Origin: a virus
Taxonomy: Duplodnaviria; Heunggongvirae; Uroviricota; Caudoviricetes
Direction: 5' to 3' (one strand)
Virus record (IMG/VR): IMGVR_UViG_2529293039_000014
DNA: 20,633 bases
A program made the position numbers. Shown here piece by piece: positions 6,001 through 9,000 of the stretch. Each line of letters opens with the position of its first letter. The first letter of the stretch is position 1.

Positions 6001-9000
6001 AGCACTACCAGCGGATGTTCCGTAGGCAATGCCAGTAGAGATTTTGTCCATTGATTTCATAGCAACGCCTCCGCCAGTAACGGATTGCGTAGTTCTTATA
6101 TTGGGAAGGGGAAAAAAGAAGGCCGCAGCGTAACTATCACTAATAAATTCAGGACAGCCAGTGGCTACGGCTCAGTTTGGGTTGTGGCGGCCGGAATCGA
6201 ACCGGCTTCCATCGGTGCGCTGCCGATTGCAGTACGCGCGGCGGTCAGCTATATGACTAGTATTTTCACTATCGCCTATCTGCTAGCTCGCCATTGAGCT
6301 TCACCACAACGATAAGAGCACTGCGCGGCACCTTTCACCAATTCCGCGAGGTCTGCGGGTTCAATGCTCTTACCTGTTGTGCAGAAAAAAAACCACACGG
6401 CAGCGAGTTTAAGCTGTGTGGCGAAGTTACCTCTCTTCACCAAGTATTCGGTAATAAAATAACTTGTGGTGTTCTCGTTTTTATGCCGATAAAATAAACG
6501 GTCCACTTTCAAATGGAGCGATTCATGATTTTTCTCAGAACTGAAAACGGCATCGAGAAACTTGAAAACTGGGAGGAAATTATATCCAGACCAAACTTTG
6601 TCACCACTATAGACAAAGGAGTTCAACAACTTGAGGAGATAATTGGTTACTACAAATTTAAAGAAGAAATCCACTGTGGTCTAACTGGTTGCAACCAACC
6701 ACATCAAATGGGTTATATTGTAAAAACATCTAGTGGCATTGAAACCAACATCGGAAATAAATGTGGTAAAAACGAATTTGGTGTGGAATTTGGTGAAAAC
6801 GTTCTTAGTTTCAATAAATTTATGCAACTCGAAACCAATCGGGAAATTATTAGCACCGCAAAAAGTAAATGTGAAGCGTGGCAAAAAAATATTGAAACGA
6901 TACGAAATATCAAACCCACAATAGATTATCTATCTTCTACCATCGAAAATAGTAAAAATTCCAATTACTCCGGAAGACTTGGTGCTACAGAAATTCGTTT
7001 TTTGACCAAGAACCAGACAGGCCTTGTAACCCTTTCTGAAGTGGAAACTGATAAGAATACCAAAACAATTCTGTTCGCAATGAATGAACACATGCGCGAG
7101 TCTGGAGAGGCAATAAGTGAATTCTACATAGGAAAAGTATCATTTAGTCATGTTCTTTTACCAGAAAACAATCTTCGTGATTTTTTTGTTGCGCTCAAAG
7201 AAGATCTAAAAAAAATTCAGTGTATTGATCTACAAACAGCCCCAAGCCCAGAAATTTCTAATGTTGCCAAAATTGCCAGTTCAATCGAAGAACGAATCAA
7301 GCGATTAAAAAAACTGAAACATGAAGCCAGTAAATTCCTAACTAAAAAAAATCTGCGTCCCATCGCAAACAAAATAAAATACTCATCGACAGCGGATGAA
7401 CTTGAATTCCATAATTTCGAACGCTTTTTAAAAGGGCTGAAATGATAAAAGCCCCGAAAGGGGCTTCTATCAAAATCATTTACGCATTATTCCGCATGCT
7501 TAAAAGAATACATGACAGATTCGGACAAAATCAAGTGCAATGTCGCAAAAACCCTAAGCTTAGTTCACATCATCACCAAAACTTGTCACATTCTGAAAAG
7601 CAATATCGGCCTTACGCTCTTCCTGGTGGCAAATGTCAACCAGAGAATCAAGAAACGGCTTCCAATTACGCGTCCATGTCCTGACATGTAGCTCGGGTAT
7701 CCGCTTCAGTACAACTTTATATACTGTGGTAGACGGTACCGTGGAAAATCCATTTCCGCTGCAACGTTCGCAGATTTTAAACACTGGCACACCACGCTCG
7801 CTTGTGGCTTTGCGGTCCAGTACCTCTCCCTTTCCACCACAACGACACCTGGCACTTATCACTCCCTTCCCTTTACATACATCGCAAACGACTGGTACAA
7901 CTTCCGTTACCTCTGTCCATTTCTCCCAGTCTGACGGTCGAACAGCACGGGAGCGACTGGCCCAATATGGTGCTTTACCCCATGGGTATGAAACCTTACG
8001 AATGACCTGCTTACGGGGTGTTAGTCCGGTACCACTGCAACTATGGCATGTTACGCTGGTGTCCGCCGATCGGGAATACTCAGCAAAAGCAAACTGCGCC
8101 AGTACCAGCATACACCAGCCAAATTCACCACCAGCTGCTTTACGCACATTCTTCGGTGCAATTTCCATCGCGTGACGCGCCAGCGCTTGGACTGCCATCT
8201 GCTCATCAGTCTTGCTGATACCGGCCTTCCCGAAGAAGGCCGCCAAGCCAAACCGTTCACGATTGCTGGTGGTACCAATAGCCGCCATAACATCGGTGCC
8301 TGTAAGACGTTCCGGAGAGGTTCCTTTCACATCGTCGCCGATATACATTCCCTGAGGACTGAAGTATTTTAGCGATGCCTCAAGCTTCATTATTCACACT
8401 CCCCAACCAGATTAAGAATAACCGCCGCGCCATTGTCTTTCATATATTCGCCCTTTCCGCTTGCCAAAAACCAACGACACACCTCCACTGCTTCAGCCCG
8501 TGTCACCGGTTTGATGGTCATCAGCAATTTTTCAAGGTAGCGCTCGCGGTCATATACCGATTCGTGATGCTCAGAGTAACCATACTCATCGCCCTGTTCT
8601 TTAGACGCAGTGTGGCGAACACTGTAGAGCCAGTCCCAGTAAACAAACTCACGAACTACGTCTGACAATGTATGAGGCTCTGGCAGTACATCACGATAGC
8701 CATCAACATATGCACGACGCTGATCATCAATTTCATTCATACGGATGCCATCAATTCTGCCCGCTGTCTTCTCGGCTGCAGTCCAGCCCCAGAGATGATC
8801 GTCGATAAATTTCTGGGAAGACTTGATCACTCGCTCGGCTTCCACATCTTCGAGTGCTGCTTCATAGCTACCAAACGTAGCCCTGACTGATGTTGCTTTT
8901 TTGATATTCTCCCGGGCGATCCTGATTGCCTGTGCCGGGTTATCCATGCCGATGGTACCGAAAGCAATCTGGAAAGGATCACCACCATTCGCCAGCAGAT

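What the first reader, a model, noticed from the sequence alone, without database searches (positions are those of the whole stretch)
6180..6310. tRNA remnant between the late terminators and the holin
A canonical T-arm and acceptor 3' strand (GCCGG-TTCGATT-CCGGC-CGCCACA-A-CC), preceded by an anticodon-arm-like stem and a 4-nt variable loop, is present without a matching 5' half at the right distance. A D-arm-like segment with complementary acceptor sequence lies about 56 nt further upstream. Lambdoid phages such as Stx phages carry tRNA genes exactly here, and tRNA 3' halves are classic integration targets. The remnant may mark the recombination junction through which the adjacent moron was acquired, or a phage tRNA disrupted by an internal insertion.
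Basis: seen in the sequence. Interest (0 to 1): 0.5.

Follow-up and report, generated by a model that had tools for sequence, protein, structure and literature searches.

The report
Five-armed tRNA-like phage RNA gene
What looked like a broken tRNA is an intact, widely conserved phage RNA shaped like an arginine tRNA with an extra fifth arm, whose tip always stays self-complementary; no annotation tool or RNA library used here recognises it and its job is unknown.

Summary
The "remnant" reading is not supported. The 56 nt that separate the two tRNA halves are a conserved fifth arm (arm X, 6283-6229), inserted between the D arm and the anticodon-like arm. About 90 distinct versions exist in lambdoid, P22-like, Skatevirus, Akiravirus, Klebsiella and Pantoea phages and prophages. 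All five helices show compensatory changes: 94.9% of cells are paired, against 31-46% in slid controls. RNAalifold predicts the same fold on its own. With arm X deleted in silico, ARAGORN calls all 44 tested versions tRNA-Arg at a relaxed threshold. Intact, none is called, and Rfam 15 has no matching family. The loop at the tip of arm X holds a hexamer with seven sequence variants, all self-complementary, which suggests a kissing-loop homodimer. A covarying 13-bp hairpin (P0) abuts the acceptor-like stem. The same P0/P1 frame encloses unrelated interiors in lambda, HK629, CUS-3 and P7, and a related frame holds lambda's N-leader RNase III hairpin. In Skatevirus the element lies between a promoter-like and a terminator-like site with no gene downstream. 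Best reading: a non-decoding tRNA mimic cut out by tRNA-processing enzymes. Its target is unknown.

The parts
6385..6421 (-). Late terminator (tR'-like). Hairpin CCACACAGC...GCCGUGUGG at 6421-6393, then a run of eight U at 6392-6385. This is context: the element lies just downstream on the same strand.
   Evidence: Read directly from the sequence. The downstream end of the stretch shared with HK75 overlaps the feature annotated Tr' in the HK75 record. The simple terminator scan missed it because its loop is longer than 8 nt.
6376..6381 (-). CACAAC. It could pair with the first six bases of P1 (GUUGUG, 6310-6305) and so lengthen P0 to about 19 bp with one bulged A (6375). That pairing would exclude the tRNA-like acceptor stem.
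   Evidence: In alignment A3, 99.5% of cells are paired. All 12 substitutions seen keep the pair as a wobble, but no pair changed on both sides. This is a possibility, not an established helix.
6311..6374 (-). P0 hairpin. 13-bp stem GGUAAGAGCAUUG (6374-6362) with CAGUGCUCUUAUC (6323-6311), and a 38-nt apical region (6361-6324). It abuts P1 with no spacer.
   Evidence: Minimum-energy fold. Covariation: 8 of 13 pairs changed on both sides and 94% of cells paired, against 32-71% for the tested structure (P0 and the extra helix together) in slid controls.
6181..6310 (-). The whole five-armed tRNA-like RNA, from the first base of P1 to the last.
   Evidence: Single-sequence fold, RNAalifold consensus, pair counts, and a covariance-model match of 161 bits over the full model length.
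6302..6310 (-). P1, 5' strand: GUUGUGGUG. It pairs with 6189-6181 to form an acceptor-like stem of 9 bp rather than 7.
   Evidence: 5 of 9 pairs changed on both sides. The eighth pair from the junction reads UA 16, GC 15, AU 8. Metagenome copies add further compensated variants.
6286..6299 (-). D arm: GCUC-AAUGGC-GAGC. The GG in the loop is invariant.
   Evidence: The stem is almost invariant, so covariation says nothing for or against it.
6229..6283 (-). Arm X, the inserted fifth arm. Base helix GCAG/CUGC; conserved internal loop AUA (6279-6277) opposite GCGCGUA (6239-6233); upper stem 6276-6269 with 6248-6240; apical loop of 20 nt.
   Evidence: Base helix: 3 of 4 pairs changed on both sides. 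Upper stem: 8 of 9. The covariance model aligns real tRNAs with exactly this arm deleted.
6256..6261 (-). Self-complementary hexamer ACUAGU in the apical loop of arm X. Proposed kissing-loop dimerisation site.
   Evidence: 100% of cells are self-complementary. Outer pair: UA 24, AU 17, GC 3. Centre pair: UA 30, GC 11, CG 2, UG 1. There are 7 hexamer variants among 54 distinct arm X sequences, all self-complementary.
6211..6227 (-). Arm Y, the anticodon-arm equivalent: AUCGG-CAGCGCA-CCGAU. 5-bp stem and a 7-nt loop that is nearly invariant. The loop has A where tRNAs have U33 and C where they have a purine at 37.
   Evidence: 3 of 5 stem pairs changed on both sides and 100% of cells are paired. 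The loop varies only as CAGCGCA, UAGCGCA, CAUCGCA or CUGCGCA.
6207..6210 (-). Variable-loop equivalent: GGAA.
6190..6206 (-). T arm: GCCGG-UUCGAUU-CCGGC.
   Evidence: 3 of 5 pairs changed on both sides and 100% of cells are paired. The loop UUCGA(U/C)U is conserved.
6181..6189 (-). P1, 3' strand: CGCCACAAC. It is followed by CCAAAC.
6117..6180 (-). Conserved 3' flank (CCAAACUGAGCCGUAGCCACUGGCU...) leading to the holin gene at 6060-5845. It is shared with lambdoid phages that carry other interiors in the same frame.
   Evidence: The CUS-3 record labels the corresponding stretch a "boundary sequence".

Best explanation
Window 6310-6181 (minus strand) is an intact gene for a non-decoding tRNA mimic of about 130 nt.

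**Shown**
- The RNA has a tRNA-Arg-like body: a 9-bp acceptor-like stem, a D arm with GG, an anticodon-like arm, a 4-nt variable loop and a canonical T arm.
- A 55-nt fifth arm (arm X) is inserted between the D arm and the anticodon-like arm.
- Every arm that varies enough to test is kept by compensatory change; the D stem is nearly invariant, so it is untested.
- The tip of arm X holds a hexamer that changes in sequence but stays self-complementary.
- A covarying 13-bp hairpin (P0) abuts the acceptor-like stem.

**Inferred from position**
- In this prophage the RNA is made as part of the late transcript, just after the late terminator and before the holin gene.

**Inferred from resemblance to pre-tRNAs**
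- Host tRNA-processing enzymes release it: RNase P at or near the P0/P1 junction, and 3' trimming downstream.
- The tRNA body acts as a natural processing and stability scaffold.

**Inferred from the palindrome**
- Two copies pair loop to loop into a homodimer.

**Most speculative step**
- The dimer works by mimicry. It binds or titrates a host factor that recognises tRNA, such as a tRNA-directed nuclease or sensor. It does not decode: the anticodon-like loop CAGCGCA lacks U33 and a purine at 37.
For: **Fold**
- Single-sequence folding gives the five-armed cloverleaf.
- RNAalifold on 44 distinct sequences gives the same fold: 32 pairs, 17 with compensatory change.
- Pair counts: 94.9% of cells paired against 31-46% when partners are slid. 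24 pairs changed on both sides, against 5-10 in the slid controls. No shuffle out of 500 reached the observed values.

**tRNA likeness**
- With arm X deleted in silico, ARAGORN of 44 tRNA-Arg (GCG or UCG) at the relaxed threshold and 16 of 44 at default. Intact, it of 44.
- The covariance model aligns real phage tRNAs with arm X removed and arm Y as the anticodon arm.

**Spread and settings**
- About 90 distinct versions came from IMG/VR, GenBank phages, species-representative genomes and metagenomes.
- Settings seen:
  - the lambdoid late leader;
  - between nutL and the N start codon, in phages with many different N proteins, including true lambda N;
  - about 100 nt upstream of tRNA-Met in Akira.
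- In Skatevirus it lies between a sigma-70-like promoter and a terminator-like hairpin, with no ORF downstream. That argues for a trans-acting product.

**Palindrome**
- There are 7 hexamer variants, all self-complementary. One is the G.U intermediate UCUGGA.

**P0**
- 8 of 13 pairs changed on both sides.

**Background**
- Phage tRNAs have been proposed to act as supplements or decoys against tRNA-cleaving defences (PMC13096335, read).
Against: - There are no expression, processing or dimerisation data. RNase P cleavage, stability and the dimer are all inferences.
- The 9-bp acceptor-like stem, A in place of U8, and a short D loop depart from good RNase P and tRNA substrates.
- Only some classes carry CCA in the right place after the stem.
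- No candidate protein partner co-occurs with the element. Its neighbours differ in every setting.
- The loop resembles no particular host anticodon loop closely.
- Its position between nutL and N, where lambda has its RNase III hairpin in a related frame, fits a purely cis-acting role equally well.
- Copies in one genome can carry the same palindrome, so no lineage-specific pairing code is evident.
Confidence: 0.5

Rival explanations
1. It is a cis-acting processing module ("tRNA punctuation"). Its only job is to be cut by RNase P and 3' processing enzymes, separating the upstream leader (nutL, or the late terminator region) from the downstream message. This would match what RNase III does at lambda's N-leader hairpin. 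The released RNA would be a by-product.
For: - In P22-like and lambda-like phages it lies exactly between the nutL boxB and the ribosome-binding site of N.
- In L009, which encodes true lambda N, it occupies a near-identical frame (CAAAG..CUUUG, a GGUGUG..-type stem, A-CCAAAG) to the one that in lambda holds the RNase III hairpin.
- In this window it lies between the late terminator and the holin gene.
- The P0/P1 frame is kept while the interior is swapped between phages.
Against: - The Skatevirus copy has its own promoter-like and terminator-like sites and no downstream ORF.
- A plain tRNA would be enough for punctuation. This does not explain the nearly invariant loop CAGCGCA, the conserved internal loop AUA/GCGCGUA, or the covarying palindrome.
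- This reading does not exclude the main one; both could hold.
Confidence: 0.2
2. It is a regulatory switch in the leader. The first bases of P1 pair either with the upstream CACAAC, giving a long P0 and an open tRNA-like fold, or with the 3' strand, giving the closed tRNA-like fold. A ligand, a protein or the speed of transcription sets the balance. That balance controls processing or expression of the downstream genes.
For: - The alternative helix CACAAC:GUUGUG is 99.5% paired, and all 12 observed substitutions keep the pair.
- One class with P1 starting AUUGUG has upstream CACAAU.
- In the N-leader class, CUUUGG can pair with CCAAAG either upstream or downstream, close to the ribosome-binding site.
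- Multi-way junctions with invariant internal loops are typical of ligand-binding RNAs (general knowledge).
Against: - No pair of the alternative helix changed on both sides. A G/U-rich strand tolerates any transition in its partner, so the signal is weak.
- The minimum-energy fold prefers P0 plus P1.
- The Skatevirus copy has nothing downstream to regulate.
- Conserved D-loop and T-loop sequences point to tRNA mimicry rather than a ligand pocket.
Confidence: 0.1
3. It is a real decoding tRNA-Arg gene interrupted by an intervening sequence (arm X) that is removed from the RNA.
For: - With arm X deleted, ARAGORN calls tRNA-Arg in all 44 versions at the relaxed threshold.
- Both anticodon variants, GCG and UCG, would read arginine codons.
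- It lies in slots used by phage tRNA genes.
Against: - The loop has A at position 33 and C at position 37, and position 8 is A. These break nearly universal tRNA rules (general knowledge).
- The insertion is between positions 26 and 27, not in the anticodon loop.
- At 55 nt it is too small for a group I intron, the only known kind of bacterial tRNA intron (general knowledge).
- An intron has no need of a covarying palindrome or a conserved internal loop.
- The 9-bp acceptor-like stem is maintained by covariation.
Confidence: 0.05
4. It is a decaying tRNA remnant or recombination scar, or a DNA-level site such as an attachment site or a palindromic protein-binding site.
For: - Standard tRNA finders fail on it.
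- The flanks coincide with what one record calls lambdoid "boundary sequences".
- Different interiors are found between the same flanks in related phages, so recombination does happen here.
Against: - Compensatory, RNA-style changes, including G.U intermediates, occur in all five helices and in the palindrome. UCUGGA is not a DNA palindrome.
- The element is full length in every lineage.
- It is not next to an integrase or a prophage end.
- Homology with other phages runs straight through it.
Confidence: 0.03

Closest known systems
Phage T4 small stable RNAs C and D (species 1 and 2; rnaC, rnaD)
   Same: - They are phage-encoded RNAs of about 140 and 120 nt, lying in line with phage tRNA genes.
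- rnaC ends in a tRNA-type T arm and acceptor-like 3' end.
- They are non-coding and their function is still unknown (PMC3014915).
- The element here likewise lies in tRNA slots and next to tRNA-Met in Akira.
   Different: - There is no detectable homology. The covariance model scores T4 rnaC only 16 bits, at the 3' part of rnaC where the T-arm-like sequence lies.
- The T4 RNAs are not known to have a five-armed cloverleaf or a palindromic loop.
tRNA genes carried at the start of the lambdoid late operon (phage L: Asn and Leu; Sf6: Asn and Thr)
   Same: - Same genomic slot, between the late promoter/terminator and the lysis genes (PMC8022706).
- Same overall tRNA shape and probably the same processing route.
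   Different: - Those are canonical decoding tRNAs found by standard tools.
- This RNA has an extra arm, a non-canonical anticodon-like loop and a 9-bp acceptor-like stem. ARAGORN and Rfam miss it.
Lambda N-leader RNase III hairpin
   Same: - It is framed by a small hairpin CAAAG..CUUUG, a stem GGUGUGUG/CACACACC, and A-CCAAAG before the N ribosome-binding site.
- In other phages a near-identical frame holds the tRNA-like element.
   Different: - The interior is a long irregular duplex cut by RNase III (established knowledge), not a tRNA-like fold.
- There is no T loop, D loop or palindrome.
Kissing-loop dimerisation sites such as the HIV-1 DIS hairpin; loop-loop pairing of phi29 packaging RNA
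   Same: - A short self-complementary (DIS) or complementary (pRNA) loop sequence differs between strains or relatives yet keeps its pairing (general knowledge).
- The pattern seen here is the same.
   Different: - Those sites belong to retroviral genomes or to a packaging motor RNA.
- Here the loop is on an arm of a tRNA mimic, and dimerisation is untested.
tRNA-like domains of tmRNA and bacterial Y RNA (YrlA); engineered "tRNA scaffolds" for expressing RNA inserts
   Same: - A tRNA-shaped module gives recognition by tRNA enzymes and stability, while another part carries the function (general knowledge).
- Rfam's best weak match here is to the two ends of tmRNA (20 bits).
   Different: - The tmRNA match is far below the gathering score of 47.
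- There is no tag reading frame and no pseudoknots.
- In YrlA the RNA ends lie in the Ro-binding stem, not in the acceptor-like stem.
- In engineered scaffolds the cargo replaces the anticodon arm. Here it is added beside it.

Membership tests
Canonical tRNA (Rfam RF00005; ARAGORN) | Recognised by tRNA finders at their curated thresholds | tested here: not met
   ARAGORN finds nothing in the window or in 6 related loci at this site. Rfam at gathering scores finds nothing. The 44 intact versions give 0 calls at default.
Canonical tRNA (Rfam RF00005; ARAGORN) | T arm with the T-psi-C-type loop, and a D loop with GG (the tRNA elbow) | tested here: met
   GCCGG-UUCGAUU-CCGGC, and a D loop AAUGGC with invariant GG. 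The T stem covaries.
Canonical tRNA (Rfam RF00005; ARAGORN) | D arm joined to the anticodon arm by a single nucleotide (position 26); four arms in all | tested here: not met
   A 55-nt covarying arm sits between them.
Canonical tRNA (Rfam RF00005; ARAGORN) | 7-nt anticodon loop with U33 and a purine at 37; U8 | tested here: not met
   The loop is CAGCGCA: A at 33 and C at 37. Position 8 is A. These are nearly invariant across 44 sequences.
Canonical tRNA (Rfam RF00005; ARAGORN) | 7-bp acceptor stem, discriminator base, CCA | tested here: inconclusive
   The helix is 9 bp, and pairs 8 and 9 covary. ACCA follows the 9-bp stem in the N-leader class. In the window a CCA fits only if the stem is counted as 8 bp. 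The Skatevirus class has none.
tRNA pseudogene, or attachment-site fragment of a tRNA | Truncated or degraded, with no selection on structure | tested here: not met
   It is full length in every lineage. Compensatory changes occur in every helix except the nearly invariant D stem.
tRNA pseudogene, or attachment-site fragment of a tRNA | Lies at a prophage end or next to an integrase gene | tested here: not met
   It lies between the Q-like antiterminator/terminator and the holin gene.
Bacterial tRNA gene with a group I intron | Intron of 200 nt or more with a group I core, inserted in the anticodon loop | tested here: not met
   The insertion is 55 nt and sits between the D arm and the anticodon-like arm. 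There is no Rfam intron match even at E-value 10.
tmRNA (RF00023) | tRNA-like ends plus a tag reading frame and pseudoknots; score at or above gathering | tested here: not met
   20.2 bits against a gathering score of 47. Only the ends align and the interior is absent. ARAGORN finds no tmRNA.
T4 RNA C / RNA D type small stable RNAs | Sequence or structure homology to rnaC or rnaD | tested here: not met
   The covariance model scores rnaC 16 bits (E 0.007), at the 3' part of rnaC where the T-arm-like sequence lies.
T4 RNA C / RNA D type small stable RNAs | Small non-coding RNA encoded in line with phage tRNA genes | tested here: met
   About 100 nt upstream of tRNA-Met in Akira. The same slot in Bas80 and e270.2 is followed by tRNA-Met and tRNA-Ser.
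Kissing-loop dimerisation element | Self-complementary hexamer in an unpaired loop, kept self-complementary as it changes | tested here: met
   7 variants, 100% self-complementary at the aligned position. Changes on both sides in 20 and 13 sequences for the outer and centre pairs.
Kissing-loop dimerisation element | Physical dimer formation | not testable with these tools
   Needs native gels, SEC-MALS or cryo-EM.
RNase P substrate | Acceptor-like stem stacked on a T arm with a tRNA elbow; cleavage at the 5' end of the stem | not testable with these tools
   The structural prerequisites are present. Cleavage itself needs an enzyme assay or an RNase P mutant host.

The most novel reading that the evidence does not exclude
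Enterobacterial phages, lambda included, share a modular system for making small structured RNAs. A conserved frame, the P0 hairpin plus the P1 stem, is processed like a pre-tRNA. It carries interchangeable cargo RNAs that recombination swaps between phages. The five-armed tRNA-Arg mimic is one such cargo. It forms loop-to-loop homodimers and acts as an RNA counter-measure against a host factor that senses or cuts tRNA. Lambda's late leader would then encode an unrecognised RNA of the same system, and lambda's N leader would use a related frame.
Probability: 0.15. Interest if true: 0.85.

Novelty: new variant of a known kind. Interest (0 to 1): 0.7.

Why it matters
- **An unlisted RNA family.** It has strong comparative support and sits in well-studied phages and in about 3% of complete E. 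coli genomes. Rfam 15, ARAGORN and the RefSeq annotation all miss it. Some records label it as protein ("polyubiquitin-A", "hypothetical protein") or as a 58-nt "tRNA-Ser".
- **An unusual architecture.** I know of no other tRNA body with a fifth arm at position 26 carrying a covarying palindrome. It offers a natural example of a tRNA scaffold and of RNA homodimerisation in bacteria.
- **A link to lambda biology.** Lambda's late leader shares the same P0/P1 frame, and the N-leader RNase III hairpin sits in a related short-hairpin-plus-P1 frame. This ties the element to classic lambda biology and points to a broader, unexplored set of phage RNAs.
- **A possible defence angle.** If the RNA proves to be a decoy for tRNA-directed defences, it would add an RNA-based counter-defence. 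That field currently considers mostly proteins and ordinary phage tRNAs.

Tried and rejected
1. **BoxA.** The conserved AGUGCUCUU(U/A) just upstream of the acceptor-like stem resembles the antitermination signal boxA (UGCUCUUUA). I rejected this. The stretch is the 3' strand of the covarying 13-bp helix P0. Phages of the N-leader class carry a separate true boxA-boxB upstream.
2. **phi80 M3 RNA.** This is a known RNase P substrate, and I asked whether it is such a cassette. The phi80 late leader has no P0/P1 frame, so I dropped the idea. The 1976 paper is not held.
3. **Type II tRNA reading.** I first read arm Y as a long variable arm and arm X as a swollen anticodon arm. The linker lengths (1, 1 and 4 nt), the covariance-model alignment to real tRNAs and ARAGORN after deleting arm X all favour arm Y as the anticodon arm.
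4. **Uninterrupted ancestor.** blastn of the arm-X-deleted construct against 50,697 phage records returned only the split element itself.
5. **Known RNA families.** Rfam at gathering scores and at E-value up to 10 gave only a weak match to the ends of tmRNA. The other cassettes gave nothing either.
6. **Tertiary pairing** between the arm Y loop (GCGC) and the arm X internal loop (GCGCG). Both are nearly invariant, so no covariation test is possible. This stays open.
7. **Lineage-specific "dimer codes".** Two copies in one genome can share the same palindrome, so there is no support.
8. **Literature.** Eight searches, including exact sequence strings, found no description of this element. The library holds open-access papers only.
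9. **Shuffle test for palindromes.** Testing for any palindromic hexamer anywhere in the loop was uninformative: 67% of shuffles contain one once G.U is allowed. The evidence rests on the fixed aligned position.
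Full report
**1. The observation**

The finding lies on the minus strand. Reading 6310 to 6179, the parts are:
- acceptor 5' strand (GU)UGUGGUG;
- AA;
- D arm GCUC-AAUGGC-GAGC;
- U, A;
- a 55-nt segment (6283-6229);
- A;
- hairpin AUCGG-CAGCGCA-CCGAU;
- GGAA;
- T arm GCCGG-UUCGAUU-CCGGC;
- acceptor 3' strand CGCCACA(AC);
- CC.

The displacement of the 5' half is 56 nt, as stated. ARAGORN finds no tRNA in the window. Rfam finds nothing at gathering scores. At E-value up to 10, Rfam gives only a 20-bit match of the two ends to tmRNA, against a gathering score of 47.

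**2. It folds as a complete five-armed cloverleaf**

The minimum-energy fold of 6325-6170 and of the whole leader pairs the distant halves into a 9-bp acceptor-like stem (P1). The 55 nt become a separate arm, called arm X here. The single-sequence z-scores are unremarkable (-1.5 and -1.6), so the case rests on comparison with other sequences.

**3. The element is widespread**

- Megablast finds window 6117-6396 at 96-97% identity in HK75 and other lambdoid phages and in E. coli genomes.
- The core alone (6181-6323) is 93-94% identical in Salmonella Skatevirus phages and in Akira, at an unrelated genome position.
- More diverged copies are in Salmonella phage ST1UNAM (81%), Pantoea phage PdC23 (78%) and the P22-like BIS08P22 (74%).
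- Two pattern scans of IMG/VR, one of species-representative genomes and one of metagenomes bring the total to about 90 distinct versions.
- All are from phages or prophages of Enterobacterales. One hit in a Cellvibrionaceae MAG is nearly identical to the common E. coli (HK75-like) version and is probably contamination.
- The 130-nt core of the window type is in 164 of 5426 complete E. coli genomes. It is never annotated as RNA there.

**4. Covariation**

I aligned 44 distinct sequences (A2) and tested the five-armed structure.

| Measure | Structure | Controls |
|---|---|---|
| Cells forming a standard pair | 94.9% | 31-46% with partners slid 1-3 columns |
| Pairs changed on both sides | 24 of 39 | 5-10 slid |
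| Covariation score | 0.357 | at most 0.10 slid |
| Shuffles reaching the observed values | 0 of 500 | - |

Pairs changed on both sides, per helix:

| Helix | Pairs changed on both sides |
|---|---|
| P1 | 5 of 9 |
| Arm X base | 3 of 4 |
| Arm X upper stem | 8 of 9 |
| Arm Y | 3 of 5 |
| T stem | 3 of 5 |
| D stem | nearly invariant, so no information |

RNAalifold, run without my structure, predicts the same architecture: 32 pairs, 17 with compensatory change. P1 is 9 bp long and its eighth pair reads UA 16, GC 15, AU 8. Metagenome copies add further compensated acceptor variants, for example UGAGUGGUG/CACCACUCA.

**5. Relation to tRNA**

- A covariance model built from A2 aligns genuine phage tRNAs with arm X deleted and arm Y as the anticodon arm.
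- With arm X removed in silico, ARAGORN calls all 44 versions tRNA-Arg (anticodon GCG or UCG) at an 80% threshold and 16 of 44 at default. Intact, it calls none at default.
- blastn of the arm-X-deleted construct against 50,697 phage records returns only the split element. No uninterrupted homologue turned up.
- The body still breaks rules that decoding tRNAs obey. The loop is CAGCGCA, with A at position 33 and C at 37. Position 8 is A. The D loop is short. The acceptor-like stem has 9 bp.

It is therefore a tRNA-Arg-shaped mimic with an added arm. It is neither a decoding tRNA nor a wreck of one.

**6. Arm X and its palindrome**

Arm X has four parts:
- a 4-bp base;
- a conserved asymmetric internal loop, AUA opposite GCGCGUA;
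- an irregular upper stem of about 9 bp;
- a 19-20-nt apical loop.

At one fixed aligned position the loop holds a hexamer that is always self-complementary. Among 54 distinct arm X sequences the counts are: ACUAGU 26, UCUAGA 12, UCGCGA 10, UCUGGA 2, GCUAGC 2, UCCGGA 1, ACCGGU 1. As "pairs", the outer positions read UA 24, AU 17, GC 3, the centre reads UA 30, GC 11, CG 2, UG 1, and 100% of cells pair.

UCUGGA is the G.U intermediate between UCUAGA and UCCGGA, and it is not a DNA palindrome. That points to pairing at the RNA level. A hexamer cannot fold back on itself, and I found no constant partner within the molecule. The simplest reading is a loop-to-loop (kissing) homodimer. This is an inference.

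**7. The frame around it**

The 13 nt just upstream (CAGUGCUCUUAUC, 6323-6311) looked like boxA. They actually pair with GGUAAGAGCAUUG (6374-6362) to form a 13-bp hairpin, P0, which abuts P1. In 32 distinct settings, 8 of the 13 pairs changed on both sides. Upstream CACAAC could also pair with the first six bases of P1. That helix is 99.5% paired, but its changes are only one-sided and wobble-preserving, so the evidence is weak.

The same P0, P1 and 3' flank enclose quite different interiors elsewhere:
- lambda: 66 nt, with P1 GUUGUGCUG/CAGCACAAC, which is compensatory;
- HK629, about 100 nt;
- CUS-3, about 200 nt;
- Bas80;
- Klebsiella phage e270.2;
- P7, which has the upstream motif and a P1-like stem around yet another interior; I did not check for P0 there.

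None of these interiors matches Rfam where tested; the P7 interior was not scanned. Lambda's interior has 83% homologues inside the tRNA clusters of rV5-like phages and a 98.5% homologue in the tRNA/ban operon of P7.

**8. Genomic settings**

- *This window*, minus strand:
  - helicase, primase and a Q-like antiterminator (8390-7560);
  - a plus-strand ORF of unknown function (6513-7445);
  - the terminator (6421-6385), P0 and the tRNA-like RNA;
  - holin (6060-5845), endolysin and Rz.
- *HK75*: between the annotated Tr' and the holin gene.
- *P22-like and lambda-like phages*: between the nutL boxB and the N start codon, for many unrelated N proteins including true lambda N. Lambda itself has its RNase III hairpin in a near-identical frame.
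- *Skatevirus*: it lies on the strand opposite the flanking tail genes. It has a sigma-70-like promoter (TTGACA-17-TAGATT) about 90 nt upstream of P0, a terminator-like hairpin about 110 nt downstream, and no ORF after it.
- *Akira*: tRNA-Met follows about 100 nt downstream.

The stand-alone unit argues that the RNA itself is the product.

**9. Mechanism**

*Shown:* an intact RNA fold under selection, a tRNA-like elbow, a fifth arm with a self-complementary loop, a P0 hairpin abutting P1, and placement in tRNA-type slots behind strong phage promoters.

*Inferred:*
- It is released by RNase P at or near the P0/P1 junction and by 3' trimming, as for pre-tRNAs.
- It is stable because of the tRNA-like body.
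- It forms a homodimer through the palindrome.

*Speculative:* it binds or titrates a host factor that recognises tRNA. Recent work proposes that phage tRNAs act as supplements or decoys against tRNA-cleaving defences (PMC13096335).

*Rivals:*
- a purely cis-acting processing module;
- a conformational switch that uses the CACAAC alternative;
- a spliced decoding tRNA-Arg;
- the original remnant idea.

The remnant idea is contradicted by the covariation.

**10. Comparison with what is known**

The closest analogues are the T4 small stable RNAs C and D. They are encoded in the T4 tRNA cluster and rnaC has a tRNA-like 3' end. Their role is still unknown (PMC3014915). No homology to them is detectable. 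Ordinary tRNA genes occupy the same late-leader slot in phages L and Sf6 (PMC8022706). Eight literature searches, including exact sequence strings, found no description of this RNA, within the limits of an open-access library.

**11. Verdict**

- The "remnant/junction" reading is not supported, though "tRNA with an internal insertion" is anatomically right.
- The element is a member of an unannotated, well-supported family of five-armed tRNA-like phage RNAs.
- Its function is unknown.
- I rate it a new variant of a known kind (phage tRNA-like small RNAs), with interest 0.7.

Noticed in passing
L160 446-546 (lambda NC_001416, about 44845-44945): Lambda's own late leader, just after tR', has the same P0 hairpin and a 9-bp P1 stem (GUUGUGCUG/CAGCACAAC). 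They enclose a 66-nt structured interior. Homologues of that interior sit inside the tRNA clusters of rV5-like phages (83%) and in the tRNA/ban operon of P7 (98.5%). There is no Rfam match. This looks like an unrecognised lambda RNA.
   Followed up: partly
L168 360-520, minus strand (lambda N leader); L009 about 7880-8030: The classic RNase III hairpin of lambda's N leader is framed by CAAAG..CUUUG, GGUGUGUG/CACACACC and A-CCAAAG. In a phage with true lambda N (L009), a near-identical frame (P1 GGUGUGGUG/CACCACACC) holds the tRNA-like element instead.
   Followed up: partly
L158 1213-1345 (HK629); L159 1215-1440 (CUS-3); L228 900-1100 (Bas80); L165 2066-2210 (P7); L229 905-1075 (Klebsiella phage e270.2): At least three more unrelated interiors occupy the same P1-type frame; in HK629, CUS-3, Bas80 and e270.2 the P0 hairpin is also present. 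Several have a hairpin next to the P1 3' strand where a T arm would be, for example ACCGG-AGAUCAGCA-CCGGU, which is compensated in CUS-3. Several are followed by real tRNA genes. None matches Rfam where tested; the P7 interior was not scanned.
   Followed up: partly
L003 about 1400-1500 (Salmonella phage ST1UNAM): Here a lambda-type interior (AGCCGGAAACAGAACCGG...GGGCGUCAUCGCCGCC) appears to sit inside the 74-nt apical region of P0, directly upstream of the tRNA-like element. The modules can therefore be nested. The loop UCAUCGC of that module resembles the arm Y loop CA(G/U)CGCA.
   Followed up: no
window 6513-7445 (+): An ORF of 310 aa lies on the strand opposite the late genes, between the Q-like gene and the late terminator. 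It matches PHROG 7003 over its full length (E 2e-110); that family has no known function. Homology to HK75-type phages stops at about 6396, inside the terminator, so the junction for this insert is there and not at the tRNA-like element.
   Followed up: partly
window 6376-6381 and 6305-6310 (-): CACAAC upstream of P0 repeats the P1 3' strand and could displace it, giving a helix of about 19 bp with one bulged A. Such a helix might be an RNase III substrate or a folding switch. Substitutions keep the pairing only through wobble changes.
   Followed up: partly
L001 2880-3030, minus strand (Skatevirus vB_CECAV_048); also L228 1090-1170: Downstream of the element the Skatevirus unit has a long inverted repeat (CUUAACAUCCAGC ... 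GCUGGAUGUUAAG) before the terminator. The repeat is conserved in Bas80, where a different interior is present.
   Followed up: no
ON470589.1 and ON470594.1 (H1, H2); PQ186186.1 (L001 3000-3057); PV340546.1 (L006 1530-1862): Public records annotate this RNA region as protein ("polyubiquitin-A", "hypothetical protein") or as a 58-nt "tRNA-Ser" covering only arm Y and the T arm. These are probably annotation artefacts.
   Followed up: yes
L162 (JAUVQU010000080.1, Cellvibrionaceae MAG): A 9.7-kb contig of a marine-type MAG carries a copy with flanks nearly identical to the common E. coli (HK75-like) version. It is probably a contaminating enterobacterial phage contig in the bin.
   Followed up: no
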